Shown: piece by piece, positions 1,182 to 43,364 of the stretch
Layout of the letters: the number at the start of each line of letters is the position of its first letter
How positions within the stretch are numbered: position 1 is the first letter of the stretch
Origin: a virus
IMG/VR virus record: IMGVR_UViG_3300027782_000035
Strand: one strand, 5' to 3'
DNA: 64,000 nt
Made by a program: the position numbers and the translations under genes
The notes under the pieces: model-generated
The model's input: the letters and a program-made list of their open reading frames with translations, nothing else
What the model was told of the DNA's origin: nothing
Database searches by the model: none

Positions 1182-1631
1182 TTAAAACGAGTATTTCAAA
1201 CCAACTGCAATTTGATTACCATCAAATGCATTTACACTTTTCTGACCTTCTTGACGGCGCCAATCAATCGTTGCGGCCAAATTCTTGGCAACAGGAACAG
1301 AACCACCGACACCAGCAGTAACGGCATAACCATCAGCACCAGTTTGATTCATCAAATATGCAACGCCACCTTTTACTGCAACAGTAACAGGTCCGACTTT
1401 CGTAACATCATATGAACCAACTAAACTATAACGGTCTTGGTCATTTGTCCCTTGAACGAAACGAGTGTAACCGGCTTCAACACCAATAGCACCAAATTTT
1501 TCACCTAAAGTAATACCATAACCTGTGCGGTCGGCACTACCAGAATAATCACGGGTACCGTTTACACCAACTTCTACTGCTGATGCTGATAATGCCAAAG
1601 TGGCCAATGTTGCAAATAAAACTTTTTTCAA
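1182..1631 (-). CDS. Outer-membrane beta-barrel protein (OmpA-TM/Ail-Lom-like)
   Basis: Signal peptide, alternating beta strands, C-terminal VGLKYSF BamA signal. Confidence 0.8.
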   Translation of the reverse strand: MKKVLFATLATLALSASAVEVGVNGTRDYSGSADRTGYGITLGEKFGAIGVEAGYTRFVQGTNDQDRYSLVGSYDVTKVGPVTVAVKGGVAYLMNQTGADGYAVTAGVGGSVPVAKNLAATIDWRRQEGQKSVNAFDGNQIAVGLKYSF

Positions 1632-1654
1632 AATAAACTCCTTGTTGTTAATAG

Positions 1655-1990
1655 TGGTTAGTTATTCTGTTACGAGGAAACTAACCGAAACCCTAAGCTG
1701 CGTTTAAGCTGCTAATGCGAACTGTGAGTCGTTTGCGTTTACTTTTTTTGCTTGATTAACGGTCATCGCCTACCGTGTTGCCGTCGCCACTATCTAGCCC
1801 TGTCGAAACTATGCAGGCCCATCAGAAAGACACTTATGTTTAGTTAACCCTTTATCCCTTACCCACTCAAATCTAATAAAACAGGTTGGGCATAATGCAG
1901 TATATCTATGTTTCATAATTATCTTTTTGGTGGACCTGGGGGGATTCGCACCCCCGTCCAGAACTCCTTCGCTTTGAAGGGATTACAACA
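1655..1990 (-). ncRNA. ssrA: tmRNA, circularly permuted two-piece form (acceptor piece ~1990-1928; coding piece 1820-~1655; tag ANDSQFALAA at 1736-1704)
   Basis: 3' end CAGGUCC-ACCA lies upstream of 5' end GGGCCUG, giving a 7-bp acceptor stem with G3.U70; UUCGAC after the 5' stem; tag ends ALAA-stop. Outer ends approximate. Confidence 0.9.
1809..1916 (-). CDS. Possible 35-aa Cys/His peptide inside the tmRNA intervening segment
   Basis: MKHRYTALCPTCFIRFEWVRDKGLTKHKCLSDGPA; no clear SD. Confidence 0.3.
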   Translation of the reverse strand: MKHRYTALCPTCFIRFEWVRDKGLTKHKCLSDGPA

Positions 1991-1992
1991 AT

Positions 1993-2559
1993 TCAATAAC
2001 TGACTGATAACCTATCAGTCAGTGTAAACTCTCTGTCTCTTACAAATGCAGTCAAAATATATTTTGACCCTGCGATCACACTTTCACCTTGATGAATCAT
2101 TGGTTCTTGTGTGTTGTATTTATAAACAACACAACTGCCACGCCGGGGTTTGATTCTCAAATTGTTTTTGGCAAAAACTGTGCAACCACCTTCAAAATCA
2201 TCATTGAGATACATGATCATTGTGGCTGTTCTTTGCGACGCAAAGCCCGACGTCAAGTCTGTGTGCCAATTGAAATAGTCTCCAACATCATATCTAATGA
2301 GAGGCATGGGTTCAATTTGCTGGATATTTTTAATATTAAAAAAATCTGCCACTCGCTTGGTCAACAAGTCAAAGTACTCATCATTGCCATATTCAATTCT
2401 GTGAGTTTTGCATTTTCTAATGTCATGGTATTCCAACTGACCGTTACGATGAACTTGACCATTTTTCCAATCGTAGTGCTTGGAAAAAATCTTGACAAGA
2501 TCTTGATCACTCAGCCAATTGTCATACTGCACAATTGAAGAACCATGGTGTGTTATCAT
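1993..2559 (-). CDS. 2OG-Fe(II) oxygenase (prolyl 4-hydroxylase-like)
   Basis: HxD (WHTD), YLNDDFEGG, distal H and K.ILT motifs. Confidence 0.85.
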   Translation of the reverse strand: MITHHGSSIVQYDNWLSDQDLVKIFSKHYDWKNGQVHRNGQLEYHDIRKCKTHRIEYGNDEYFDLLTKRVADFFNIKNIQQIEPMPLIRYDVGDYFNWHTDLTSGFASQRTATMIMYLNDDFEGGCTVFAKNNLRIKPRRGSCVVYKYNTQEPMIHQGESVIAGSKYILTAFVRDREFTLTDRLSVSY

Positions 2560-22740: not shown

Positions 22741-22763
22741 AAAAGGACCCGTGAGGGTCCTTT
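22740..22763. terminator. Bidirectional intrinsic terminator between convergent operons
   Basis: aaaaaggaccc-gtga-gggtccttt hairpin. Confidence 0.75.
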
Positions 22764-22783: not shown

Positions 22784-24211
22784 TTAGATATCGTAACGTT
22801 CTACCATCAATGCTTTTAACATGATAGCTTCTGGAGTAAACTCTTCAGTGTTACCCGAAAGTACTGCATTCAAGATTGAAGGTGAGAATCCAGAAATTAG
22901 TGCAGTTCCACTCTTATCGAATTTTACTGGCACATTGCCTTTTGCGTTCAAGTTCCAGAATACAACCTTTGGAAGGTCGTACCCTGCTGCTTGGTACTTA
23001 TGTTCAATCATCTGCATTGCAGAGTGATCAAATTTAGCACAAGCATCGAACTGCATGTCGGACATAATCAGAAGCATCTCTGGCATTTCTTCTTGAGGAA
23101 CGCCACCTTTAACTGCAGTGCTAAGGATTTTATCGAAAGCTTTATGCAAGTTGGTATTCATTGCCCAGTCAGACTTAATCATTTGTTGAGCCTTCTGAAC
23201 TACGTTACCCTTTAGGTTCAATAGTTGTGGATTGGCCGAGAATGTCAAGAACGTATCCTTGAACACACCTTTGTTCTTGTCGGCAACATACAATCCCAAA
23301 GAGACTGCAACGTCTAAACAGGAAATAGCTGAACCAGAACCAAAGCCACCAACTGGACATGTCATAGATCCAGACACATCAACTAATGCAAGAATGTTTG
23401 CATCCCCAACATAGTTAGGTAGTGCTTCCCATTGCTTAACGACTACGTCTAGTTCATCCTTGGTGAATGAAACAGAACTAAAGCGATTGGTTACACCTTT
23501 CAATACGTCGTATGGATACACGGCACCGGCATTAACCTTAACTGTTGGATCAGTTCCCTTCACCAAAGCTTTTACGTATTCGCCATACTTTGGAGTGTTA
23601 CGTCCAAAAGCTTTCTTATAACGAGCATGAGCTACTGAAGGTACGTGTGAGAAGTTAATGTCATCCCATTCTTTAGCGCACATCTGAGATTCCACAACCT
23701 TAGTCAATTCAACCAAGGACTTACGATAGAACTTTGGAGACATACCAAAGAATGTGCGGATCTCTGCTGCTAGAGGTCCTTGACGAGGAGTCCACTTAGC
23801 GGCCAAACCATTACGTTGGCGCAGTGCTTCGCCCAACATAGTAAAAGCTTGGGCTTTCAATTCTTTGTTTTTAAAGACAAAGATATCGTCCCAACGTCCT
23901 AGTTCTGGAACCTTTGGTAGCAGCTTAGCTGCAAGGTCAGGACGATGAGTGTCAAGGTAACCTAGAATGTCGCGGAAGATCTTACGTTCTCCAGCTCCTC
24001 CGCGCACATCACGAACCCATTGAGTGATACGCAACGCTATATCTTCATTCTCAACAAGAGCTGCGACGAATTCTTTCGTCACATCTTTACCCCGTGATGC
24101 TCCTATTCCAAAGAATAGGTCTACACACTTATTAGCTGTAGACTTACGAGCTTTCATACCATTTTCAGTACGAGCTTCTTGATTCTTAACTGCTTCTACG
24201 AATGTTGACAT
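22784..24211 (-). CDS. TROVE-like helical + vWA protein (DUF2828-type, Ro60-related architecture)
   Basis: RDVRGGAGER, GRWDD, LAAKW.PR, MIDAS DVSGSM, TNL..AF, SDMQFD, FWNL, SGFS. Confidence 0.8.
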   Translation of the reverse strand: MSTFVEAVKNQEARTENGMKARKSTANKCVDLFFGIGASRGKDVTKEFVAALVENEDIALRITQWVRDVRGGAGERKIFRDILGYLDTHRPDLAAKLLPKVPELGRWDDIFVFKNKELKAQAFTMLGEALRQRNGLAAKWTPRQGPLAAEIRTFFGMSPKFYRKSLVELTKVVESQMCAKEWDDINFSHVPSVAHARYKKAFGRNTPKYGEYVKALVKGTDPTVKVNAGAVYPYDVLKGVTNRFSSVSFTKDELDVVVKQWEALPNYVGDANILALVDVSGSMTCPVGGFGSGSAISCLDVAVSLGLYVADKNKGVFKDTFLTFSANPQLLNLKGNVVQKAQQMIKSDWAMNTNLHKAFDKILSTAVKGGVPQEEMPEMLLIMSDMQFDACAKFDHSAMQMIEHKYQAAGYDLPKVVFWNLNAKGNVPVKFDKSGTALISGFSPSILNAVLSGNTEEFTPEAIMLKALMVERYDI

Positions 24212-24231: not shown

Positions 24232-24290
24232 AACAGGTTGCTTATTTTTCAATTAAAAGTTGAATTTTTTAATTTGCTGGACGCAACCTA
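24232..24290 (-). ncRNA. CAGCA-stem small RNA, unit 1 (contains tRNA-Lys-like anticodon stem-loop)
   Basis: U-AGGUUGC GUC CAGCAA ... GCAACCU-GUU. Confidence 0.6.
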
Positions 24291-24295
24291 AAATA

Positions 24296-24434
24296 AACAG
24301 AATAGTTTTCTACTTTTTAATTTTCTAGTATCGAAACTAGCCGGAAAGAACTCGAAACTTACCGGAGATTACCGAAGCAATCAACCTAAGGATGCGCTTG
24401 GAAGCGCAAGTTTTAAATTGCTGAACCTATTCTA
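24296..24434 (-). ncRNA. CAGCA-stem small RNA, unit 2
   Basis: U-AGAAUAG GUU CAGCAA ... CUAUUCU-GUU; internal UUCG hairpins. Confidence 0.6.
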
Positions 24435-24439
24435 AATTT

Positions 24440-24656
24440 AACGGGATGATCGGGTTAGTCGTATATGGTTCTTAAACCTCGGTGCTCCTTGCGGTAAACC
24501 CCACCGTAATCAGATAGACTACTATCATATTTCTGTCTTTCCAGTGTCAAGTTTAGTTCAGGTTTATTCCCTAGTCGCGTAATTACACATTACTGTGGTC
24601 CTCCTGTAGCGACACTTCTAGTACTTTATAGTTTTTGAAGTGCTGTAATCATCCCA
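24440..24656 (-). ncRNA. CAGCA-stem small RNA, unit 3
   Basis: U-GGGAUGA UUA CAGCAC ... UCAUCCC-GUU; starts at the predicted TSS. Confidence 0.6.
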
Positions 24657-24665
24657 AGTTTTTTT

Positions 24666-24694
24666 ATTATATATCACTCACGATTATTTGTAAA
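24666..24694 (-). promoter_or_regulatory. Promoter for the small-RNA array and TROVE-like gene
   Basis: TTTACA-N17-TATAAT. Confidence 0.7.
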
Positions 24695-24713: not shown

Positions 24714-24788
24714 TGGTACCTTGTGACGGTTTCGAACCGCCGACATCCCACTTGTAAGGAGGGCGCTCTACCACTGAGCTAACAAGGC
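24714..24788 (-). tRNA. tRNA-Val(UAC)
   Basis: Cloverleaf; encoded CCA. Confidence 0.9.
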
Positions 24789-24795
24789 ATAATCT

Positions 24796-24871
24796 TGGGC
24801 AGACGTTACGGACTTGAACCGTTCCTACGAGTTTCACAGACTCGTGTGCTAACCACTACACTAAACGCTGC
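24796..24871 (-). tRNA. tRNA-His(GUG)
   Basis: Cloverleaf with G-1; bulged acceptor stem. Confidence 0.85.
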
Positions 24872-24874
24872 ATA

Positions 24875-25006
24875 TACCATATAGAAACACACTGTGGTGC
24901 TTGAATCCGTGATAGCCCCTCTCTTCCTGGCCGGTCCTTGCACTGTCTAGAATTGGCAAGTATTTCGGTGTTCCAGTGTAGCTACTCAATGTGTTTTTAT
25001 ATGGTA
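24875..25006 (-). ncRNA. tRNA-trailing 17-bp stem enclosing a ~95-nt insert (element A)
   Basis: taccatatagaaacaca ... tgtgtttttatatggta. Confidence 0.5.
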
Positions 25007-25076
25007 GAGGTACAGGGAATCGAACCCTGATTAATAGGTTAAAAGCCTACTACTTTAGCCGTTAAGTTATACCTCC
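25002..25076 (-). tRNA. tRNA-Lys(UUU)
   Basis: Cloverleaf; CCA. Confidence 0.9.
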
Positions 25077-25207
25077 ATTGGTATTTGTTTTTGTGCTTTA
25101 CGTAATGCCTTATTAGACTTACGATGAACACCTGCTTTACGGAAAAGTGCAAGTCGAACGAAGCAGTTACGTTCGCGCACGATTGTCTTTCGTTTACTCA
25201 TCTTCAT
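25067..25207 (-). CDS. Small basic protein (46 aa), weakly ArfA-like
   Basis: AAGGAG SD; RERNCFVRLALFRKAGVHRKSNK; stop codon inside tRNA-Lys. Confidence 0.55.
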   Translation of the reverse strand: MKMSKRKTIVRERNCFVRLALFRKAGVHRKSNKALRKAQKQIPMEV

Positions 25208-25226
25208 TCTCCTTGTTAATAATTAG

Positions 25227-25300
25227 TGGAGCGGGGTAGGAGAATCGAACTCCTCGCTTTAGCTTGGAAGGCTAGGGTATTACCACTATACGAACCCCGC
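25227..25300 (-). tRNA. tRNA-Gly(UCC)
   Basis: Cloverleaf; CCA. Confidence 0.92.
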
Positions 25301-25301
25301 A

Positions 25302-25577
25302 TTATACTTTAATTGTACTCCATTGACGAAGTTTTTCTCGTTTTGCTTCACGAGCTTTTTCTATCCAAAGAGCACCAATGATATCGTGCTCAATAAGTAA
25401 GTCGATCATACACAGAAGATCACCAACTTCTTCCTCAAGATGTTCGCGGTTAGTAACGCTGTTATATTCAGCATCTATACCAAACCTAAACACCTTGCTG
25501 ATAGCTTGGATAACTTCAGCGCATTCCTCTTGAGCGATCAAGAGAATTTCTTTTCCATTGTCATTTGTGTTTTTCAT
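25302..25577 (-). CDS. MazG-like NTP pyrophosphohydrolase
   Basis: EECAEVIQAISK..RFG, LEEEVGDL; promoter at 25584-25612. Confidence 0.75.
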   Translation of the reverse strand: MKNTNDNGKEILLIAQEECAEVIQAISKVFRFGIDAEYNSVTNREHLEEEVGDLLCMIDLLIEHDIIGALWIEKAREAKREKLRQWSTIKV

Positions 25578-25620
25578 ATTGTAATTATACCACAAACACG
25601 AATTAATGTACACCGTTATT

Positions 25621-25696
25621 TGGAGCGGGCGATCGGGTTCGAACCGACGACATTTACCTTGGCAAGGTAATGCTCTACCAACTGAGCTACGCCCGC
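25621..25696 (-). tRNA. tRNA-Gly(GCC)
   Basis: Cloverleaf; CCA. Confidence 0.93.
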
Positions 25697-25697
25697 A

Positions 25698-25904
25698 TTA
25701 ATTGTCTACTACTGTGTACGTAGGGCTAACTATTACATACTTAGCACGCTGCACATTCACTTCAATGATAGGAACACTATTAGCTTCATTCGTTGCTTTA
25801 ACAAAAGCACGTGCTTCATGTTCAGTGTCAAAATATATGGTACCATCTACATTCATAGATGTTTCATCTTCACGCGTAATCAATACAACTTTATATGGTT
25901 TCAT
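25698..25904 (-). CDS. Hypothetical protein within the tRNA cluster
   Basis: ORF fills the inter-tRNA gap. Confidence 0.55.
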   Translation of the reverse strand: MKPYKVVLITREDETSMNVDGTIYFDTEHEARAFVKATNEANSVPIIEVNVQRAKYVIVSPTYTVVDN

Positions 25905-25917
25905 AATGTTTCTTATT

Positions 25918-25991
25918 TGGCATCCCTCCAGAGACTCGAACTCCGACTAATGGTTTTGGAGACCATCGTGCTGCCATTACACCAGAGAGAC
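25918..25991 (-). tRNA. tRNA-Trp(CCA)
   Basis: Cloverleaf; CCA. Confidence 0.88.
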
Positions 25992-25994
25992 ATT

Positions 25995-26077
25995 TGGTAC
26001 CCGAAGCCGGACTCGAACCGGCACGCACTAGGCGGGAGATTTTAAGTCTCCTGTGTCTACCATTCCACCATTCGGGC
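25995..26077 (-). tRNA. tRNA-Leu(UAA)
   Basis: Long variable arm; CCA. Confidence 0.92.
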
Positions 26078-26356
26078 TTATTTCTTAACTAACGGATTCT
26101 CGGAATCTAGCGCATCTTCATTCTTAAATACAACCTTGGCGCTACCAACAGTGCCAGGCATATCTAAAATACAATCTTCAGTAGATAACACATCTTGATA
26201 TTCATTCTTAGCTGTGCCTGTATTATCTTCATCAAGATTATCACGCCTAAAGATAGCGTCCCAACGAGTATTATACTCTTCTTGACTTACGCTAAATGGA
26301 CGTGGATTTGATCCTTTACCTCCGGGATTTCCCGTCATATCAAATGTTGCTGTCAT
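26078..26356 (-). CDS. Hypothetical protein (GGKGS..RP motif)
   Basis: GGKGSNPRPFSV....Y...WDAIF; AGGAG SD. Confidence 0.65.
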   Translation of the reverse strand: MTATFDMTGNPGGKGSNPRPFSVSQEEYNTRWDAIFRRDNLDEDNTGTAKNEYQDVLSTEDCILDMPGTVGSAKVVFKNEDALDSENPLVKK

Positions 26357-26364
26357 ATGAACTC

Positions 26365-26487
26365 CTATCTACCTTGTCCTCGATATCTTTTTGTGCGTTT
26401 ACGCGTTTTGTTAAGAGTACTAGTCTTACTTCCGTTTTGACAAGTTTTCTTAACAATTTTTCTACGTGAACTCGTGCCTTTACTCAT
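26365..26487 (-). CDS. Small basic protein ending KRYRGQGR (40 aa)
   Basis: AAGGAG SD; not in ORF track. Confidence 0.6.
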   Translation of the reverse strand: MSKGTSSRRKIVKKTCQNGSKTSTLNKTRKRTKRYRGQGR

Positions 26488-26499
26488 AATTATCTCCTT

Positions 26500-26574
26500 T
26501 GGTGCTGATGGCGGGACTCGAACCCACGACCTCTTCCTTACCAAGGAAGTACACTACCACTGTGTTACATCAGC
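26500..26574 (-). tRNA. tRNA-Thr(GGU)
   Basis: Cloverleaf; CCA. Confidence 0.92.
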
Positions 26575-26585
26575 AAATTATAAAA

Positions 26586-26662
26586 TGGTCGGAGTACAAG
26601 GATTCGAACCTTGGACCCCCTGGTCCCAAACCAGGTGCGCTACCAGACTGCGCTACACTCCG
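26586..26662 (-). tRNA. tRNA-Pro(UGG)
   Basis: Cloverleaf; CCA. Confidence 0.93.
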
Positions 26663-26674
26663 TAAAACTATATA

Positions 26675-26750
26675 TGGTAGTTGAGGTGGGACTCGAACCC
26701 ACGATAGTCACCGTATGAAGGTGGTGCATTAGCCACTATGCTACTCAACC
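26675..26750 (-). tRNA. tRNA with CAU anticodon (elongator Met or Ile2)
   Basis: Cloverleaf; loop UUCAUAC. Confidence 0.85.
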
Positions 26751-26759
26751 ATATAAACT

Positions 26760-26834
26760 TGGTGCCGGATGTCTGGTTCGAACAGACGACCTATCGCTTA
26801 CAAGGCGATTGCACTACCACTGTGCTAATCCGGC
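26760..26834 (-). tRNA. tRNA-Thr(UGU)
   Basis: Cloverleaf; CCA. Confidence 0.92.
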
Positions 26835-26840
26835 GAAAAC

Positions 26841-26917
26841 TGGTAGCGGAGGAGGGATTCGAACCCCCGATTCTTGGCTTATGAGACCAAGCGGATAGAC
26901 CACTTCCATACTCCGCG
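26841..26917 (-). tRNA. tRNA-fMet-like (CAU)
   Basis: CGCGGAG 5' end with a 1:72 mismatch. Confidence 0.8.
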
Positions 26918-26923
26918 ATATAT

Positions 26924-26999
26924 TGGTGGAGGTGACAGGACTCGAACCCGCTACCTACTGCTTGCAAAGCAGCCGCTCTCCCAGCTGAGCTACACCCCC
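26924..26999 (-). tRNA. tRNA-Ala(UGC)
   Basis: G3.U70; CCA. Confidence 0.93.
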
Positions 27000-27007
27000 A
27001 AAAAACT

Positions 27008-27082
27008 TGGCGCGTCCTGAAGGAATCGAACCTCCATCCCAAAGTTCGTAGCCTTGTATATTATCCATTATACGAAGGACGC
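27008..27082 (-). tRNA. tRNA-Arg(ACG)
   Basis: Cloverleaf; CCA. Confidence 0.9.
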
Positions 27083-27089
27083 ATTATTC

Positions 27090-27145
27090 AACAGAATCGT
27101 TTTGCTTTTTTTCATAAAAAGTTTTTTATTGCTGAACCGATTCTA
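27090..27145 (-). ncRNA. CAGCA-stem small RNA, unit 4 (dispersed copy between tRNAs)
   Basis: U-AGAAUCG GUU CAGCAA ... CGAUUCU-GUU; stem covaries with unit 2. Confidence 0.6.
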
Positions 27146-27149
27146 AAAC

Positions 27150-27225
27150 TGGCTCCCCAGCGTGGGATCGAACCACGGACACCTTGATTAACAGTCAAGT
27201 GCAACTACCGCTGTGCTACTGGGGA
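27150..27225 (-). tRNA. tRNA-Asn(GUU)
   Basis: Cloverleaf; CCA. Confidence 0.92.
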
Positions 27226-27379
27226 ATAAATATTTTTATGATAGACGTCAACACCGCAATTGCTCGCTTGTACAAATTTTCACAAAGAAAATACGTACAG
27301 CGTGCGTCTTACACTAACTCTAAAGAATTCAAACTTGATGAACTTCTAAGTAAACCTAAGCCTGAATTCAAACCAATCG

Positions 27380-27467
27380 TGGTGGGTGTTGATGGTAACG
27401 CTCCACGAACCTGACTTCCCATCTCTTTAGGTAACGGTTTTACAGACCGCCGACGGGGGCAACACCC
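27380..27467 (-). tRNA. Atypical tRNA-Tyr(GUA)-like RNA lacking a normal D arm
   Basis: Acceptor GGGUGUU/AACACCC-ACCA; anticodon arm GCGGU CUGUAAA ACCGU; non-canonical D and T regions. Confidence 0.6.
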
Positions 27468-27473
27468 TAAACT

Positions 27474-27547
27474 TGGTCCCCTCGTATGGAATCGGACCAT
27501 CTTCTCTCGGTTATCAGCCGAGTGCTCTACCATTGAGCTACAAGGGG
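27474..27547 (-). tRNA. tRNA-Ile(GAU)
   Basis: Cloverleaf; CCA. Confidence 0.88.
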
Positions 27548-27553
27548 AAATAT

Positions 27554-27629
27554 TGGTAGGAACGATTGGACTCGAACCAACCACACGCAAATTTTCAGTC
27601 TGCTGCTCTACCTGATGAGCTACGTTCCC
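27554..27629 (-). tRNA. tRNA-Phe(GAA)
   Basis: Cloverleaf; CCA. Confidence 0.9.
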
Positions 27630-27635
27630 ATTATA

Positions 27636-27727
27636 TGGCGGAAAGCAGAGGAGTCGAACCCCATCCCATTTCTGAGAACCCAGTTTTCAAGGCTGGTCGC
27701 CGGACCATCCCAGCTGCATTACTTTCC
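27636..27727 (-). tRNA. tRNA-Ser(UGA)
   Basis: Long variable arm; G73. Confidence 0.85.
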
Positions 27728-27734
27728 ATAAACT

Positions 27735-27811
27735 TGGTACCCCAGAGGAGACTCGAACTCCTAAAATTTGGTTTCTAAGACCAACACGTATACCAATTCC
27801 GTCACCGGGGC
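27735..27811 (-). tRNA. tRNA-Leu(UAG), short variable loop
   Basis: 77 nt; Leu-type D loop but no long variable arm. Confidence 0.85.
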
Positions 27812-27818
27812 AATAATT

Positions 27819-27963
27819 ATTGTTAAGTGTTATCCGCCGATTTGTCAAAAATGTAGCTAGCACTGACAAGCGAATAGCAGTTATATCAGGACCTGTTCCT
27901 CGCACAGTTAGGCCCGCATAGTGTAAGCGTCCTTACACGATACCTTGATAACACTTAACAATA
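27819..27963 (-). ncRNA. Structured RNA enclosed by a perfect 17-bp stem (element D)
   Basis: tattgttaagtgttatc ... gataacacttaacaata; internal hairpins. Confidence 0.5.
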
Positions 27964-27968
27964 AACTA

Positions 27969-28043
27969 TGGCGGTGCCAAGGGGTAACGATCCCCTTCTT
28001 CGAGCGTGACAGGCTCGTGTGCGTCCATGAACACTTTGGCACC
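27969..28043 (-). tRNA. tRNA-Asp(GUC)
   Basis: Cloverleaf; G73. Confidence 0.88.
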
Positions 28044-28047
28044 AAAT

Positions 28048-28236
28048 TAGGATAAGCTACTGGGTTCCACGCCAGCCCTTAATTGAGCAGTTACTCTGTC
28101 CATCCCTTTTATTCTGATGTCTGTGTGCAGAGGGAACTGCCTATCAGAGCCTGAGGGGTTACCTCGCTAACGGTTTTCTGCCACCGGATCTCTGTCGCTA
28201 ATCAAACGCTATTTTAACGAAAATAGTAACGGGATT
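28048..28236 (-). ncRNA. Unassigned multi-hairpin structured RNA
   Basis: GC-rich, ORF-free, several hairpins (e.g. CUAUUUU-CGUU-AAAAUAG, UCUGAU...AUCAGA). Confidence 0.4.
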
Positions 28237-28237
28237 C

Positions 28238-28410
28238 TACCATAAAGAAACACACTGGCAAATCCCTTCCTGAGACTATTGCGTTTGCTCCGCTCACTCT
28301 TGTTTTCTCGGATTCCTTGGGCTTGAGATTAAACTCAGGAAAGCATAGGGTTCCAGCCTATGGCTAACATCCGCCCTCACCGGTACTGGGCAATGTGTTT
28401 CTTTATGGTA
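28238..28410 (-). ncRNA. tRNA-trailing 17-bp stem enclosing a ~135-nt structured insert (element B)
   Basis: taccataaagaaacaca ... tgtgtttctttatggta (perfect). Confidence 0.55.
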
Positions 28411-28480
28411 CACGGTACGGGAATCGAACCCGTCTTACATACGTGAAAGGCATGTGTCCTAACCGATAGACGAACCGTGC
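28406..28480 (-). tRNA. tRNA-Glu(UUC)
   Basis: Cloverleaf; CCA. Confidence 0.9.
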
Positions 28481-28510
28481 ATGGTGGTGGTTTTTAGAGA
28501 ACCACCAAAC

Positions 28511-28621
28511 TCAATGGCTGACCTTTGGTCATTTAATGTTTCCTGCTCGGCGTTTTGACGTGCATCCTTTTCAGGCTGACCTTCAAGGTCCATTTAATGC
28601 GTCCTGCGTTGCGTTTTGAAA
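28511..28621 (-). repeat. Tandem pair of ~50-nt structured RNA motifs in the tRNA operon leader
   Basis: UCAAAACGC-n3-GCAGGA-nn-CAUUAAAUG(G)ACC-loop-GGUCAGCC..UGA, two copies. Confidence 0.6.
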
Positions 28622-28676
28622 CAACCTTTACGTGCCTCATGCTCCGTATTTACCGTAGACTTAGAGAGGACTTTTA

Positions 28677-28746
28677 GAATTTTTAAAGAACGTTTGCTTT
28701 ATCAGCAGTAGATAGAGATTATACACCATCTACGATTTATTGTACA
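28677..28746 (-). promoter_or_regulatory. Early promoter, hairpin and rrn-like boxA for the tRNA operon
   Basis: TGTACA-N17-TATAAT; UGCU-GAUAA-AGCA hairpin; CGUUCUUUAAAAAUUC. Confidence 0.65.
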
Positions 28747-28755
28747 CCGTTATTT

Positions 28756-28947
28756 TTAAACTCTTTCAACGGTTCCTAAAACACCGCGCGTACCGCGCGT
28801 GTATTTAGACACAGTCTGAGCCCATACAGTGTACCTAGATTTGTCAATGGGAAAAGTCTCTTGACCTTTCTTTGGTCCACGATAAGCGCACTGAGTAAAC
28901 TTAACGCCATCAATAACGATTACAGTGTCTTTAGATTTCCTAGCCAT
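28756..28947 (-). CDS. Hypothetical early protein
   Basis: AAGGA SD; own promoter and palindrome at 28978-29039. Confidence 0.6.
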   Translation of the reverse strand: MARKSKDTVIVIDGVKFTQCAYRGPKKGQETFPIDKSRYTVWAQTVSKYTRGTRGVLGTVERV

Positions 28948-29189
28948 TTAAGTTCCTTTGTTTGACTTGATATAGCTATTCTATCAAATTGACGATTTAT
29001 TGTACACCGTTATTTCAATAGTTGACTAAAACAGTCAACTTAAACCTTTAGTATTCAAAATGCATCAGGTGATCTTGAAAGGCATCGAGCTAGGGTAATC
29101 CCTATCGAGCCATCAAACGTTCATTCTGGTGCATTCTGTACACATAAGTTGTTGATTTATAAGGGCTAAAAATAGCCTTTTTATCACTT

Positions 29190-29267
29190 TGGAGCAACGG
29201 GTGAGATTCGAACTCACGGTTTTACGGATTTGCAATCCATTGCGTTGGGCCTCTCCGCCACCGTTGC
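29190..29267 (-). tRNA. tRNA-Cys(GCA)
   Basis: U73; CCA. Confidence 0.88.
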
Positions 29268-29268
29268 A

Positions 29269-29826
29269 TTAATTCCATACACGAGAATGTTTTGGCACTC
29301 CTGACTTTAGGTACTCCATCTGATCAGCCAGAATGTGTCGATTCTGAAGGATCATGTTTTCGTAATGATTAGGTGCGTATGGAACATATAGAAGTTCAAG
29401 CCCGCACTGATGAAGTAACTTGGCTCCTTTATGAGTGTTACACTTTACGCATGCAGTCACTACGTTAGACCATACGTTTTCACCACCTTTTGAAACTGGA
29501 ACAATGTGATCCCGTGATAGGTTGTTATTGGTAAAGAGCCCACCACAGTAAGCACATATATGCTTGTCGCGCGAGAATAAAGTTTTATTTGTTAGGATAA
29601 CACTGCCAGCACGTTCGATTGCAAATCCTTTACCACGTACAGCAATGATCGATGGAGTTTCTATAACGGACATACGGCCATCATTCTGAGTTCCTCCACG
29701 GAACGTTGCTACTACGTCACCAAGAGTCCACACTACCATATCCTTAGCGAAGTATGATACTGCGTCTTCATAGTTAATCCACTTGCGTGGTAGTCCAGAT
29801 ACGTCTAATGCTAATACATGTGACAT
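29269..29826 (-). CDS. HNH endonuclease (McrA-like)
   Basis: RD...CAYCG, DHIVPVSKGG, WSNVVTACVKCN..KG. Confidence 0.9.
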   Translation of the reverse strand: MSHVLALDVSGLPRKWINYEDAVSYFAKDMVVWTLGDVVATFRGGTQNDGRMSVIETPSIIAVRGKGFAIERAGSVILTNKTLFSRDKHICAYCGGLFTNNNLSRDHIVPVSKGGENVWSNVVTACVKCNTHKGAKLLHQCGLELLYVPYAPNHYENMILQNRHILADQMEYLKSGVPKHSRVWN

Positions 29827-29863
29827 GATTACTCCTTACAACTTTCTTCCTTAATTATATAGG

Positions 29864-29939
<76 letters not shown>

Positions 29940-29947
29940 ATTAAAAC

Positions 29948-30039
29948 TGGTACCAGCGGAGGGGATCGAACCCTCTCAAGAACGCTAATCTGGCGCTAAA
30001 AGGCTTATAAGACCTCTCTGACTTCCAAGTCTCGCTGGC
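29948..30039 (-). tRNA. Atypical tRNA with UAU anticodon and long variable arm
   Basis: Acceptor GCCAGCG/CGCUGGU-ACCA; minimal D arm GACU-UGGA-AGUC; canonical T arm. Confidence 0.75.
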
Positions 30040-30044
30040 ATATT

Positions 30045-30134
30045 TGGCGGAGTGACTGGGACTCGAACCCAGAAGCCTGCTTTCGCAAACCGACGGATTA
30101 GCAATCCGCTCTAATACCATTATAGGACCACTCC
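30045..30134 (-). tRNA. tRNA-Ser(GCU)
   Basis: Long variable arm; G73. Confidence 0.9.
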
Positions 30135-30141
30135 AAAATCT

Positions 30142-30219
30142 TGGTCTGGGTAGCAGGATTCGAACCTGCAGCCTCGAAGTTCCAAACCTCGCCGTCTACC
30201 TGATTGACAATATACCCAG
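30142..30219 (-). tRNA. Second, divergent tRNA-Pro(UGG)
   Basis: Loop UUUGGAA (A37); CCA. Confidence 0.8.
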
Positions 30220-30225
30220 ATGAAA

Positions 30226-30307
30226 CCATATCGAAACACACTTCGGATACTGTACTAAACAGGAACTATCCACCACGGCCATGGCGCTGAAATGCATTTC
30301 AATATGG
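30226..30307 (-). ncRNA. tRNA-trailing stem with ~50-nt insert (element C)
   Basis: ccatatcgaaacacac ... atgcatttcaatatgg; same family as A and B. Confidence 0.45.
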
Positions 30308-30378
30308 CACCGGAACTAGGGTTCGAACCTAGGACGACAGAGTCAAAGTCTGTTGTGTTACCACTACACTATTCCGGA
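30305..30378 (-). tRNA. tRNA-Gln(UUG)
   Basis: Cloverleaf; G73. Confidence 0.9.
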
Positions 30379-42940: not shown

Positions 42941-43146
42941 TACTTCTTATCTGGAACTTTCGTTCCTTCTAATTTATTATGGACTTTCATTTCCTTGCAA
43001 TTCTGCTTTACGTTGCCCTTGGCATCTTTAACAGGTTTGCCCTCTTTGTCTTTAACATCAACGCAAACTTTTGTTTTTTCAGCATCAGCATAAACTGCTG
43101 TTGACATACCAAACAATAAAGCGATGGATAATACTACTGATTTCAT
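42940..43146 (-). CDS. Small secreted protein
   Basis: Signal peptide; two Cys. Confidence 0.6.
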   Translation of the reverse strand: MKSVVLSIALLFGMSTAVYADAEKTKVCVDVKDKEGKPVKDAKGNVKQNCKEMKVHNKLEGTKVPDKK

Positions 43147-43148
43147 TT

Positions 43149-43364
43149 TTATTCCTTTTTAGTGAATTTTTCGGATGCTGTAAAACCTAAGCCCGCTATT
43201 ACAATGTACATCATCGAATCAAAAATCTTTGAATCTATTGGGTGGCCATATACCATAGCAATGTACCCACCACCACACAATAAAAATGCGAGAAGCGTGA
43301 CTACTCTTTTGCTAGAAACGGTATTGTTAGTACCATCTGATAACACACTTAATATGAAATTCAT
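43149..43364 (-). CDS. Holin-like 2-TM protein
   Basis: SSKRV, two TM helices, basic C-terminus; lysis context. Confidence 0.55.
   Translation of the reverse strand: MNFILSVLSDGTNNTVSSKRVVTLLAFLLCGGGYIAMVYGHPIDSKIFDSMMYIVIAGLGFTASEKFTKKE

What the first reader, a model, noticed from the sequence alone, without database searches (positions are those of the whole stretch)
24248..24408. Anticodon stem-loop mimics inside the CAGCA RNAs (possible anticodon-nuclease decoys)
SEEN: the cargo of unit 1 is essentially one hairpin, UUCAA-CUUUUAA-UUGAA. This is a 5-bp stem with a 7-nt loop identical to the tRNA-Lys(UUU) anticodon loop (the same loop occurs in the tRNA at 25002-25076). The first hairpin of unit 2, UGCGC-UUCCAA-GCGCA, resembles the tRNA-Gly(UCC) loop but has 6 nt. 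KNOWN: tRNA-Lys(UUU) is the target of the anti-phage nucleases PrrC and PARIS AriB. INFERENCE: the RNAs may be decoys or baits for tRNA-targeting defences, or autoregulatory sensors in the 5' UTR of the TROVE-like gene. The region is AT-rich, so chance is not excluded.
Basis: partly seen in the sequence, partly recalled or inferred. Interest (0 to 1): 0.7.

Follow-up and report, generated by a model that had tools for sequence, protein, structure and literature searches.

The report
Anticodon-arm hairpin on phage Ro-like RNA
A small phage RNA that probably partners a Ro60-shaped protein carries one hairpin built like a tRNA anticodon arm, and relatives keep that build while changing the "anticodon"; the second hairpin is an ordinary tetraloop, and the proposed decoy role against tRNA-cutting defences is untested.

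Summary
Hairpin 1 (24248-24264, minus strand) is real: a 5-bp stem with the loop CUUUUAA, identical to the loop of the phage's tRNA-Lys. On its own it looks like chance, because it is weak and a competing A-U helix folds better. Relatives rescue it. Of 157 distinct short "CAGCA-handle" units, 76 carry exactly a 5-bp stem and a 7-nt loop, against about 4 in shuffles, and 55 read YU-NNN-RA. The stems covary. The loop flanks (positions 32, 33, 37, 38) are kept while the middle triplet varies, and A34 is avoided as in real tRNAs. In relatives the same handle carries whole or circularly permuted tRNA look-alikes, with the anticodon arm at the matching place.

The Lys identity is not conserved: the closest relative reads CUUGUAA. 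Hairpin 2 (24393-24408) is a 6-bp stem with a UCCA tetraloop, and its homologues carry UUCG or GAAA loops, so it is not anticodon-like.

The units sit between a promoter-like site and a DUF2828 gene whose model matches Ro60 structures. They are most likely Y-RNA-type partner RNAs that display tRNA parts. A decoy role against anticodon nucleases stays untested.

This scan had already found the same RNA family in at least 12 other genomes. I found it neither as an Rfam family nor in the papers searched.

The parts
24248..24264 (-). Hairpin 1: UUCAA-CUUUUAA-UUGAA, an anticodon-arm-type hairpin (5 bp + 7 nt; C32 U33 UUU A37 A38) and the sole cargo of unit 1
   Evidence: Sequence. Same loop as the tRNA-Lys. 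The homologous hairpin is conserved with covarying stems in relatives. Weak in isolation, and out-competed in the minimum-energy fold.
24234..24290 (-). CAGCA-handle unit 1: U-AGGUUGC / GUC / CAGCAA / 33-nt cargo / GCAACCU-G, followed by UU
   Evidence: Script scan. Covariance model R1 scores it 75.9 bits. Sub-threshold Rfam hit to RF01414, 30.5 bits. The whole unit folds with z = -4.3.
24274..24279 (-). CAGCAA box of unit 1, the invariant single-stranded part of the handle
   Evidence: Invariant in 76 of 76 aligned units, with no change along close-relative edges.
24298..24434 (-). CAGCA-handle unit 2: UAGAAUAG / GUU / CAGCAA / 113-nt structured cargo / CUAUUCUG
   Evidence: Homologues lie at the same place in L001, L002 and others.
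24393..24408 (-). Hairpin 2: 6-bp stem UGCGCU/AGCGCA with a UCCA tetraloop; not anticodon-like
   Evidence: Fold at -8.3 kcal/mol, z = -4.5. Homologous hairpins carry UUCG or GAAA loops.
24442..24656 (-). CAGCA-handle unit 3: UGGGAUGAU / UA / CAGCA / 190-nt cargo / AUCAUCCCG
   Evidence: The UGGGAUGA-type handle with a 188-260-nt cargo recurs in many relatives.
24666..24694 (-). Promoter-like site TTTACA-17-TATAAT just upstream of unit 3
   Evidence: Matches 11 of 12 consensus positions. This is a consensus match only.
22784..24211 (-). DUF2828 + DUF7788 gene (475 aa), a Ro60-like ring plus vWA protein and the presumed protein partner of the units
   Evidence: Pfam E = 2.7e-48 and 1.2e-23. AlphaFold model with pLDDT 73; the top 11 Foldseek PDB hits are all Ro60/Rsr/phage Ro60, E about 1e-7, TM 0.41-0.57.
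22742..22763 (-). Terminator-like hairpin after the gene; none lies between the units and the gene on this strand
27092..27145 (-). Fourth CAGCA-handle unit, inside the tRNA array, 4 nt after the CCA of tRNA-Asn and 9 nt before tRNA-Arg; its cargo is CUUUU-UAUGAAA-AAAAG
   Evidence: R1 scores it 56.6 bits, E = 7e-11.
25002..25076 (-). Phage tRNA-Lys(UUU), whose anticodon loop CUUUUAA equals the loop of hairpin 1; listed for comparison
   Evidence: ARAGORN and Rfam. Loop extracted.

Best explanation
Hairpin 1 is a genuine anticodon-arm-type module displayed by the smallest of four 'CAGCA-handle' small RNAs of this T4-like phage.

Each RNA has a conserved handle: U + 7-bp closing stem + 3 nt + CAGCAA ... 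stem + G-UU. The handle encloses a variable cargo.

Three units lie between a promoter-like site and a gene for a Ro60-shaped DUF2828/vWA protein, and a fourth sits in the tRNA array.

By analogy with Ro60 and its Y RNAs (inferred, not shown), the handle is the protein's docking site and the cargo is what the particle presents to other factors.

Across the family the cargo is built of tRNA parts. These are whole tRNA-like bodies, circularly permuted tRNAs of the YrlA kind, or, as in unit 1, a lone anticodon arm. That lone arm is probably a reduced form of the larger cargos (inference).

The arm keeps the anticodon-loop syntax (5 bp, 7 nt, Y32, U33, A37, A38, almost never A34). Its middle triplet changes between close relatives.

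It therefore most likely engages something that reads anticodon arms, with the triplet setting specificity. Candidates are a tRNA-modifying or repair enzyme, a synthetase domain, or a host tRNA nuclease. Which partner, and to what end, is unknown.

Hairpin 2 is only a stable tetraloop hairpin of the unit 2 cargo.
For: Geometry.
- Of 157 distinct short units from more than 100 viral contigs, 76 have as best hairpin exactly 5 bp + 7 nt.
- By distinct cargos the count is 74 of 155, against 3.9 +/- 1.95 (maximum 11) in shuffles.

Loop syntax.
- 60 of the 76 read YU-NNN-R-N and 55 read YU-NNN-RA. Only 4.9% of 7-nt loops in shuffled cargos fit YU-NNN-R-N.
- Among 46 distinct hairpins, position 33 is U in 38, 37 is A in 37, 38 is A in 35 and 32 is C in 24.
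- Position 34 is A in only 1, though A makes up 48% of the cargo. Position 35 is spread over all four bases.
- The phage's own 26 tRNAs show the same pattern: U33 26/26, A37 25/26, A34 1/26.

Structure under selection.
- All five hairpin pairs and six of the eight handle pairs show compensatory changes.
- Along 33 close-relative edges there are 0 changes at loop positions 32, 36, 37 and 38, and 4 at position 35.

Homology to real anticodon arms.
- Mid-size units on the same handle read anticodon arm (CUUAUAA, CUUGUAA, CUUCUAA...) - variable loop - canonical T arm (GGUUCGAAUCC) - closed acceptor hairpin - D arm. Others read D - anticodon arm - V - T.
- Rfam gives these units sub-threshold YrlA hits of 34-40 bits.

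Reach.
- Hairpins of 5 bp + 7 nt with U33 and A37-A38 also occur on handles in mycobacteriophage JoeDirt (AUGGUAA) and Campylobacter phage CJLB-7 (CUGAUAA). Synechococcus phage BUCT-ZZ01 has UUCAA-CUUUUAC-UUGAA.

Link to the protein.
- Handle units flank the DUF2828 gene in the freshwater relatives and in the Listeria, Synechococcus, Escherichia, Mycobacterium, Campylobacter and Bacillus phages examined. A candidate unit in Vibrio phage K567 overlaps the gene start, and Aeromonas phage Ah1 has none within 4 kb.
- Whole-genome scans with model R1 matched in four phages (none in Bacillus phage MrDarsey). All matches lie beside the gene except one weak outlier in wV8, E = 0.078.
- The protein model matches Ro60 structures.
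- A Felixounavirus protein described as Ro60-like, gp130, counters the Ppl defence (PMC11482910). I did not check that gp130 is a DUF2828 homologue.
Against: - In this window the hairpin is thermodynamically marginal. The U at loop position 35 creates a more stable competing 8-bp helix that would bury the loop.
- Only about half of the short units have the 5/7 geometry. A sizeable subclass has 9-nt loops such as AAGCAUAUC, and a third of the 7-nt loops start with A rather than a pyrimidine.
- The sequences are related, so counts overstate the number of independent events. The set aligned for covariation was chosen for having the hairpin.
- A/U richness alone would favour A/U at position 36 and A at positions 37-38.
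- No expression, RNA-end, modification or binding data exist for any of these RNAs. Protein-handle binding is an analogy.
- The window itself has no unit with a T arm or a D arm.
Confidence: 0.6

Rival explanations
1. Anticodon-nuclease decoy or bait. The isolated arm mimics tRNA-Lys(UUU), or other target tRNAs in relatives. It soaks up, inhibits or senses host tRNA-cutting defences such as PrrC or PARIS AriB. It might do so while tethered to the Ro-like ring.
For: - The loop is identical to a real tRNA-Lys loop.
- AriB cleaves tRNA-Lys, and phages answer with variant tRNAs (PMC11455837).
- The triplet is the most changeable part of the hairpin between close relatives.
- Different units in one phage carry different loops.
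- A Felixounavirus protein described as Ro60-like is a counter-defence factor (PMC11482910).
- The units sit in or beside phage tRNA arrays.
Against: - Lys identity is not conserved. UGU (26 units) outnumbers UUU (12), followed by UCU and GUU.
- The closest relative has CUUGUAA.
- PrrC also depends on base modifications of tRNA-Lys, and it is unknown whether the mimic receives them.
- In this window the loop is predicted to be sequestered.
- The defence that gp130 counters, Ppl, is proposed by the authors to degrade DNA, not tRNA.
- No anticodon nuclease is known for the unknown host.
Confidence: 0.15
2. Structural filler. The hairpin is a spacer or stabiliser that closes a minimal handle RNA. 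The conserved C-U...A-A merely gives a stable U-turn heptaloop and has no relation to tRNA recognition.
For: - Many short units have other loop sizes of 4, 6 or 9 nt.
- Felixounavirus and Bacillus short units are not anticodon-like.
- A-rich sequence favours A at the 3' side of loops.
Against: - The 5 bp + 7 nt geometry is about 19 times more frequent than in shuffles.
- A34 is avoided against a 48% A background.
- Loops are letter-for-letter those of real tRNAs: CUUGUAA = Thr, CUUUUAA = Lys, CUGUUAA = Asn, CUGAAAA = Phe.
- The same arm lies in tRNA order before a variable loop and a T arm in larger units.
Confidence: 0.13
3. Cis-acting leader. Unit 1 acts in the 5' UTR of the DUF2828 mRNA, for instance as the protein's own binding site for feedback control of translation, and not as a free small RNA.
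For: - Unit 1 ends 11 nt before the Shine-Dalgarno AAGGAG.
- The scan found one promoter-like site upstream of unit 3 and no terminator between the units and the gene.
- In Vibrio phage K567 a handle-like element overlaps the gene start.
Against: - Units of the same kind lie within tRNA arrays or downstream of the gene.
- That explains the handle but not the anticodon-type loop.
- Being co-transcribed does not exclude processing into free RNAs, as happens for tRNAs.
Confidence: 0.09
4. Chance. It is an accidental A/U-rich inverted repeat that happens to spell the Lys loop.
For: The isolated hairpin has z = -0.22, and 53 of 200 shuffles fold as well. The region is AT-rich.
Against: The hairpin is conserved with compensatory stem changes in dozens of relatives, and down to a phage with 48% protein identity.
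Confidence: 0.03

Closest known systems
Ro60 (Rsr) with Y RNAs, especially the tRNA-mimicking YrlA of bacteria and mycobacteriophages (Rfam RF02553; Chen et al. 2014, PMC4201824)
   Same: - Small RNAs are encoded beside a Ro60-shaped ring + vWA protein.
- A closing stem of the 5' and 3' ends is the presumed protein site.
- In relatives the cargo is a circularly permuted tRNA-like domain: T arm, closed acceptor hairpin, D arm.
- These units get full-length sub-threshold YrlA hits of 34-40 bits.
   Different: - The protein is Pfam DUF2828/DUF7788, not TROVE, and has no sequence-level PDB match.
- The handle (stem + CAGCAA + G-UU) got no Y_RNA or YrlA hit in the window, even at E < 10.
- As I recall it, the Ro60-binding helix of Y RNAs also differs from this handle.
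- As I read the YrlA model (Chen 2014, partly from memory), the anticodon arm is replaced by the Ro-binding stem. Here the anticodon arm is kept and can be the only cargo.
- There are several units per phage, with swappable cargo.
Class I RNAs of dictyostelid social amoebae (Rfam RF01414; Kjellin et al. 2021, PMC7919456)
   Same: - The architecture is the same: a short closing stem of covarying sequence, then a single-stranded motif ending in CAGCAA, a variable interior, a 3' strand followed by (C)UGU, and a length of about 60 nt.
- The Rfam model aligns full-length to the short units: window 30.5 bits, and L062, L072, L015 and L038 at 23-30 bits.
   Different: - All hits are below the gathering score of 41.5.
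- Class I RNAs are eukaryotic and have their own promoter element.
- Their known direct binder is an RRM protein.
- No link to a DUF2828 protein in amoebae was tested here.
- The resemblance may be convergent.
tRNA anticodon stem-loop
   Same: - The geometry and syntax match: 5-bp stem, 7-nt loop, C32, U33, A37, A38.
- The loops are identical to those of the phage's own tRNAs.
- A34 is avoided and the triplet varies.
   Different: - There is no acceptor end, D arm or T arm in unit 1.
- The stem sequence is unrelated to that of the phage tRNA-Lys.
- The stem is A-U rich and predicted to be unstable.
Phage answers to tRNA-cutting defences: nuclease-resistant phage tRNAs (T5 tRNA-Lys against PARIS; van den Berg et al. 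2023, as cited in PMC11455837)
   Same: Both sit in a phage tRNA island, and anticodon-loop sequence is the variable feature.
   Different: Those are working tRNAs that replace cleaved host tRNAs. The element here cannot be charged, and no protection has been shown.

Membership tests
tRNA anticodon-arm mimic | 5-bp stem closing a 7-nt loop | tested here: met
   In the window: UUCAA/UUGAA + CUUUUAA. In relatives: 76 of 157 distinct short units, against about 4 of 155 in shuffles.
tRNA anticodon-arm mimic | Loop syntax: pyrimidine 32, U33, purine 37, usually A38 | tested here: met
   The window loop has C, U, A, A at these positions. Among 46 distinct hairpins: U33 in 38, A37 in 37, A38 in 35, C/U32 in 30. 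Shuffles fit the pattern 4.9% of the time.
tRNA anticodon-arm mimic | Variable triplet with tRNA-like bias (A34 rare) | tested here: met
   Eleven different triplets among units of YU-NNN-RA form. A34 in 1 of 46 hairpins, against 1 of 26 in the phage's tRNAs.
tRNA anticodon-arm mimic | Lies in tRNA context (followed by a variable loop and a T arm) | tested here: not met
   Not in the window: unit 1 holds the arm alone. It is met in relatives' larger units on the same handle.
tRNA anticodon-arm mimic | The hairpin is the favoured fold of the RNA | tested here: not met
   The minimum-energy fold of unit 1 uses a competing helix at -14.6 kcal/mol, against -9.3 for the hairpin form, and the pair probability is about 0. 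Covariation nevertheless supports the hairpin.
tRNA anticodon-arm mimic (hairpin 2, 24393-24408) | 7-nt loop on a 5-bp stem | tested here: not met
   It is a 6-bp stem with a 4-nt loop. Homologues have UUCG or GAAA tetraloops.
Y RNA / YrlA (RF02553) | Reaches the Rfam gathering score | tested here: not met
   No hit in the window even at E < 10. Relatives' permuted-tRNA units score 34-40 bits against a gathering score of 69.
Y RNA / YrlA (RF02553) | Encoded next to a Ro60 orthologue | tested here: inconclusive
   The neighbour has a Ro60-like fold (Foldseek E about 1e-7), but it belongs to Pfam DUF2828/DUF7788, not TROVE.
Y RNA / YrlA (RF02553) | The RNA is bound by the Ro-type protein | not testable with these tools
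   Needs RIP/CLIP or a reconstituted complex.
Dictyostelium Class I RNA (RF01414) | Reaches the Rfam gathering score | tested here: not met
   30.5 bits against 41.5. Four relatives score 23-30 bits.
Dictyostelium Class I RNA (RF01414) | Closing stem + motif ending in CAGCAA + variable interior + 3' CUGU | tested here: met
   Unit 1 reads AGGUUGC-GUC-CAGCAA...GCAACCU-GUU. The features are as described in PMC7919456.
Anticodon-nuclease decoy | The mimicked tRNA identity (Lys UUU) is kept among relatives | tested here: not met
   The closest relative has CUUGUAA. Triplet counts are UGU 26, UUU 12, UCU 4, GUU 3 and others.
Anticodon-nuclease decoy | Is bound or cut by, or inhibits, a tRNA-targeting nuclease | not testable with these tools
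   Needs cleavage or competition assays, or plating tests.

The most novel reading that the evidence does not exclude
Phages use a Ro60-like ring protein loaded with a panel of handle RNAs. Each RNA displays a different isolated anticodon arm or tRNA body. Together they act as a programmable counter-measure against host tRNA-targeting immunity, by decoying, inhibiting or sensing anticodon nucleases or by steering repair of cut tRNAs. The displayed 'anticodon' switches by single substitutions in an arms race. The same handle in amoebal Class I RNAs would then point to an unrecognised, widely shared RNP type.
Probability: 0.15. Interest if true: 0.85.

Novelty: new variant of a known kind. Interest (0 to 1): 0.6.

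Why it matters
- Y RNAs are known to mimic the tRNA elbow, but what the mimicry is for remains open. A Ro-like particle that instead shows a bare anticodon arm, with a changeable triplet, narrows the possible partners to factors that read anticodon arms.
- That makes the question testable in culturable phages that carry the same system (Felixounavirus/Bas63, Listeria A511, mycobacteriophages).
- It bears on why phages keep tRNA islands and on how they meet tRNA-cutting defences.
- It gives the unexplained DUF2828 family, present in 711 phage records, a concrete RNA ligand to test.

Tried and rejected
- **Rfam at gathering thresholds** found only tRNAs and the tmRNA. At E < 10 nothing in the units matched except the sub-threshold RF01414 hit.
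- **Nucleotide search of the phage collection** with the locus gave only short matches inside the coding region.
- **Sequence search of PDB chains** with the protein found nothing. The fold search was needed.
- **The window's own assembly** is not held, so questions about RNA-repair genes (RtcB) and further units in the rest of the genome could not be asked. The nearest record is a 37-kb fragment with the same two short units.
- **A fifth candidate unit** at 43134-43190 (20.3 bits, E = 0.034) overlaps the junction of two ORFs, and its 3' strand would lie inside the next ORF. I treat it as probable chance.
- **A link from DUF2828 to Dictyostelium** through papers or identifiers found nothing useful. 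The protein atlas returned only viral DUF2828 clusters.
- **One literature search on PARIS targets** was badly worded and returned irrelevant mitochondrial papers. A search on the Ppl mechanism added nothing beyond PMC11482910.
- **Base-pairing of the loop with the gene's ribosome-binding region** (CUUUU with AAAAG) was considered and dropped, because the closest relative changes the loop and I did not test for a matching change.
- **Reading hairpin 2 as a Gly(UCC) loop** was rejected, because no 7-nt reading has a closing pair.
Full report
**Setting.** The window comes from an uncultured T4-like phage. On the minus strand a 26-gene tRNA array (24714-30378) is followed by a promoter-like site (24694-24666, TTTACA-17-TATAAT). 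Three tandem small-RNA units come next, then a 475-aa gene (24211..22784) and a terminator-like hairpin (22763-22742). The gene product matches Pfam DUF7788 (E = 2.7e-48) and DUF2828 (E = 1.2e-23). It has no sequence match in the PDB. An AlphaFold model built on 28 relatives has mean pLDDT 73 and pTM 0.72. Its 11 best Foldseek matches are all Ro60 proteins: frog and human Ro60, Deinococcus Rsr and Thermus phage phiLo Ro60, at E about 1e-7, TM 0.41-0.57, over the full length. vWA/MIDAS domains follow. The neighbour is therefore a Ro60-shaped ring + vWA protein of a different sequence family.

**The units.** Each unit reads U + 7-8-bp stem + 2-3 nt + CAGCA(A) + cargo + complementary strand + G + UU.
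- Unit 3: 24656..24442, 190-nt cargo.
- Unit 2: 24434..24298, 113-nt cargo.
- Unit 1: 24290..24234, 33-nt cargo.
- Unit 4: 27145..27092, inside the tRNA array, 4 nt after the CCA of tRNA-Asn and 9 nt before tRNA-Arg.

**Checking the observation: hairpin 1.** Hairpin 1 (24264..24248) is UUCAA-CUUUUAA-UUGAA as stated. The phage tRNA-Lys carries the same loop on a different stem, GUAGG-CUUUUAA-CCUAU. Alone it is indistinguishable from chance: -0.7 kcal/mol, z = -0.22, and 53 of 200 shuffles fold as well. In the full unit the predicted minimum-energy fold uses a competing 8-bp A-U helix at -14.6 kcal/mol, against -9.3 for the hairpin form, and the hairpin's pair probability is about 0.

**Checking the observation: hairpin 2.** Hairpin 2 (24408..24393) is real and stable, at -8.3 kcal/mol and z = -4.5, but it folds as a 6-bp stem with a UCCA tetraloop. 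At the homologous place relatives have GGCGC-UUCG-GCGCC, AUGGC-GAAA-GCCAU, CAGC-GAAA-GCUG and the like. It is not an anticodon-loop look-alike.

**Relatives.** A protein-guided scan of viral contigs gave 80 loci at 65-98% identity. Nearly all with enough upstream sequence have the same kind of units before the gene. A pattern scan for the short-unit handle, which placed no constraint on the cargo, gave 98 more stretches. Together they yield 157 distinct short units.
- In 76 of them the best hairpin has exactly a 5-bp stem and a 7-nt loop. By distinct cargos that is 74 of 155, and shuffled cargos give 3.9 +/- 1.95, maximum 11.
Only 4.9% of 7-nt loops in shuffles fit YU-NNN-R-N.
- Over 46 distinct hairpins, position 33 is U in 38, 37 is A in 37, 38 is A in 35 and 32 is C in 24 (A in 15). 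Position 34 is A in only 1, although A is 48% of the cargo. Position 35 is evenly A, C, G or U.
- The phage's 26 real tRNAs show U33 26/26, A37 25/26, A38 22/26 and A34 1/26.
- Several mimic loops are letter-for-letter those of the tRNAs: CUUGUAA = Thr, CUUUUAA = Lys, CUGUUAA = Asn, CUGAAAA = Phe.

**Covariation and rates.** In an alignment of 76 such units (A1), all five hairpin pairs and six of the eight handle pairs show changes on both sides, and CAGCAA is invariant. That set was chosen for having the hairpin, so the percentage paired is partly circular; the variety of pair types is not. Along 33 minimum-spanning-tree edges between close relatives there are 114 changes in all. Loop positions 32, 36, 37 and 38 never change, and position 35 changes four times. 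The numbers are small, but the flank conservation is clear.

**The Lys identity is not conserved.** The window's Lys-type loop is one substitution from the commonest loop, CUUGUAA, which the 98%-identical relative L001 carries. Among units of YU-NNN-RA form, UGU occurs in 26 units, UUU in 12, UCU in 4 and GUU in 3, with seven other triplets. Different units of one phage carry different loops.

**What the hairpin corresponds to.** Mid-size units on the same handle are tRNA look-alikes.
- L002, L004, L046, L050 and L038 read handle - linker - anticodon arm (UUCGA-CUUAUAA-UCGAG, AUGGC-CUUGUAA-GCCGU...) - variable loop (AGGUU) - T arm (GCAGG-UUCGAAU-CCUGU) - closed acceptor hairpin - UA - D arm (GCAC-AAUUGGUA-GUGC) - handle. 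This is a circularly permuted tRNA.
- Felixounavirus wV8 has the same layout, with the loop CCGGUAA (C at position 33) on its anticodon arm.
- Mycobacteriophage JoeDirt and Bacillus phage MrDarsey have units with the T arm - closed acceptor - D arm layout, but I could not parse a clear anticodon arm in them.
- Others (L102, L100, L005, L058...) read D arm - anticodon arm (mostly CUUCUAA) - V - T arm in normal order, inside a short acceptor-like stem.
- Of 128 distinct mid-size units, 47 have a canonical T arm. In 25 of these a hairpin lies 3-7 nt before it, and 15 of those are 5 bp + 7 nt.
- Rfam gives the permuted units sub-threshold, mostly full-length YrlA hits: L185 39.8, L004 38.4 (partial), L038 37.5 and L002 34.1 bits, against a gathering score of 69.

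The lone arm of the short units sits at the same distance from CAGCAA and bears the same loops. Many short units keep a covarying 2-3-bp outer helix (UGC/GCA against UAC/GUA), which looks like the remnant of the acceptor-like stem. That the short units are reduced tRNA-like cargos is my inference.

**Reach of the family.** The DUF2828 protein occurs in 711 phage records.
- Handle units flank the gene in Listeria phage A511 (three upstream), Synechococcus phage BUCT-ZZ01 (three upstream, one with UUCAA-CUUUUAC-UUGAA) and Felixounavirus wV8 (four downstream among the tRNAs).
- They also flank it in mycobacteriophage JoeDirt (three downstream, one with UUUCA-AUGGUAA-UGAAA), Campylobacter phage CJLB-7 (two upstream, one with CAUUA-CUGAUAA-UGAUG) and Bacillus phage MrDarsey (five in or after the array).
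- Vibrio phage K567 has only one candidate unit, which overlaps the gene start. Aeromonas phage Ah1 has none within 4 kb.
- Not all short units are anticodon-like. A subclass has 9-nt loops such as AAGCAUAUC, and the Felixounavirus and Bacillus short units differ.
- Model R1, built from A1, scores window units 1 and 4 at 75.9 and 56.6 bits. In whole-genome scans of five phages it matched in four (wV8, A511, JoeDirt, CJLB-7), and all matches lie beside the gene apart from one weak outlier in wV8 (E = 0.078). It found nothing in MrDarsey.

**Comparison with known families.** The closest described system is Ro60/Rsr with Y RNAs, above all YrlA, whose tRNA-like domain is permuted in the same way (PMC4201824). 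The differences are these:
- the protein belongs to a different family;
- the handle is different;
- there are several units per phage;
- the anticodon arm is retained, whereas in YrlA (as I read that model) it is replaced by the Ro-binding stem.

The handle resembles Dictyostelium Class I RNAs: closing stem, a motif ending in CAGCAA, a variable interior and a 3' CUGU (PMC7919456). The Rfam model aligns full-length, but below threshold, to five short units at 23-30.5 bits against 41.5. I could not test whether amoebae have a DUF2828 partner.

The only functional datum found concerns a Felixounavirus protein described as Ro60-like, Bas63 gp130. It counters the Ppl defence, and its authors guessed that nearby 'tRNA genes' might be Y RNAs (PMC11482910). 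I did not check that gp130 is a DUF2828 homologue.

This scan's earlier notes describe the same handle-RNA family in at least 12 other genomes with similar conclusions. I reached mine before reading them, and they agree.

**Mechanism.**
- Shown: the anatomy, the conservation pattern, the tRNA-derived cargos, the Ro60-like fold and the genomic linkage.
- Inferred: that the handle docks on the protein; that the RNAs are cut out of the transcript (in the arrays, tRNA processing would free them); and that the displayed arm engages an anticodon-arm reader, with the triplet as specificity determinant.

The decoy idea is compatible with three things. PrrC recognises the anticodon stem-loop region (PMC1484252). 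AriB cleaves tRNA-Lys (PMC11455837). The triplet is changeable. Three things count against it: Lys identity is not conserved, PrrC depends on base modifications, and the loop is predicted to be sequestered in this window. I give it about 0.15.

Noticed in passing
window 27092-27145 (-): A fourth CAGCA-handle unit lies inside the tRNA array between tRNA-Asn and tRNA-Arg, so tRNA processing on both sides would release it. Its loop (UAUGAAA, or AUGAA on a 6-bp stem) belongs to a second class, CUUUU-AUGGAAA-AAAAG, seen in relatives.
   Followed up: partly
window 43134-43190 (-): A weak match to the short-unit model (20.3 bits, E = 0.034): UAGGUUU-UA-CAGCA across the stop of one ORF and the ribosome-binding site of the next.
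   Followed up: partly
L084 2964-3100 (Vibrio phage K567): A handle-like element (UUAGACAUU-AUA-CAGCAAAC) starts 25 nt before the annotated start codon of the DUF2828 gene, and its 3' strand lies inside the coding region.
   Followed up: no
L082 1507-2058 (Listeria phage A511): A sub-threshold ROOL RNA match (87.5 bits, gathering score 99.1, E = 1e-16) lies about 1 kb upstream of the DUF2828 gene, among tRNAs. An RtcB-type 'tRNA splicing ligase' gene lies 1.3 kb downstream, which recalls the rsr-yrlBA-rtcBA operon of Salmonella.
   Followed up: no
window 24393-24408 (+): Read on the plus strand, hairpin 2 followed by AGTTTTAAAT scores as a terminator-like site. It may stop antisense transcription into the units.
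   Followed up: no
window 1613-2069 (-): A permuted (two-piece type) tmRNA gene with the tag ANDSQFALAA is carried by the phage.
   Followed up: no
L121, L181, L095 and other loci: Single contigs carry two or three short units whose arms differ, for example CUUUUAA + CUUCUAA + CUUGAAA in L121. This suggests a panel of arms per phage rather than redundant copies.
   Followed up: partly
L188 (Aeromonas phage Ah1): No handle unit was found within 4 kb on either side of this phage's DUF2828 gene. The RNAs may lie elsewhere or be absent.
   Followed up: no
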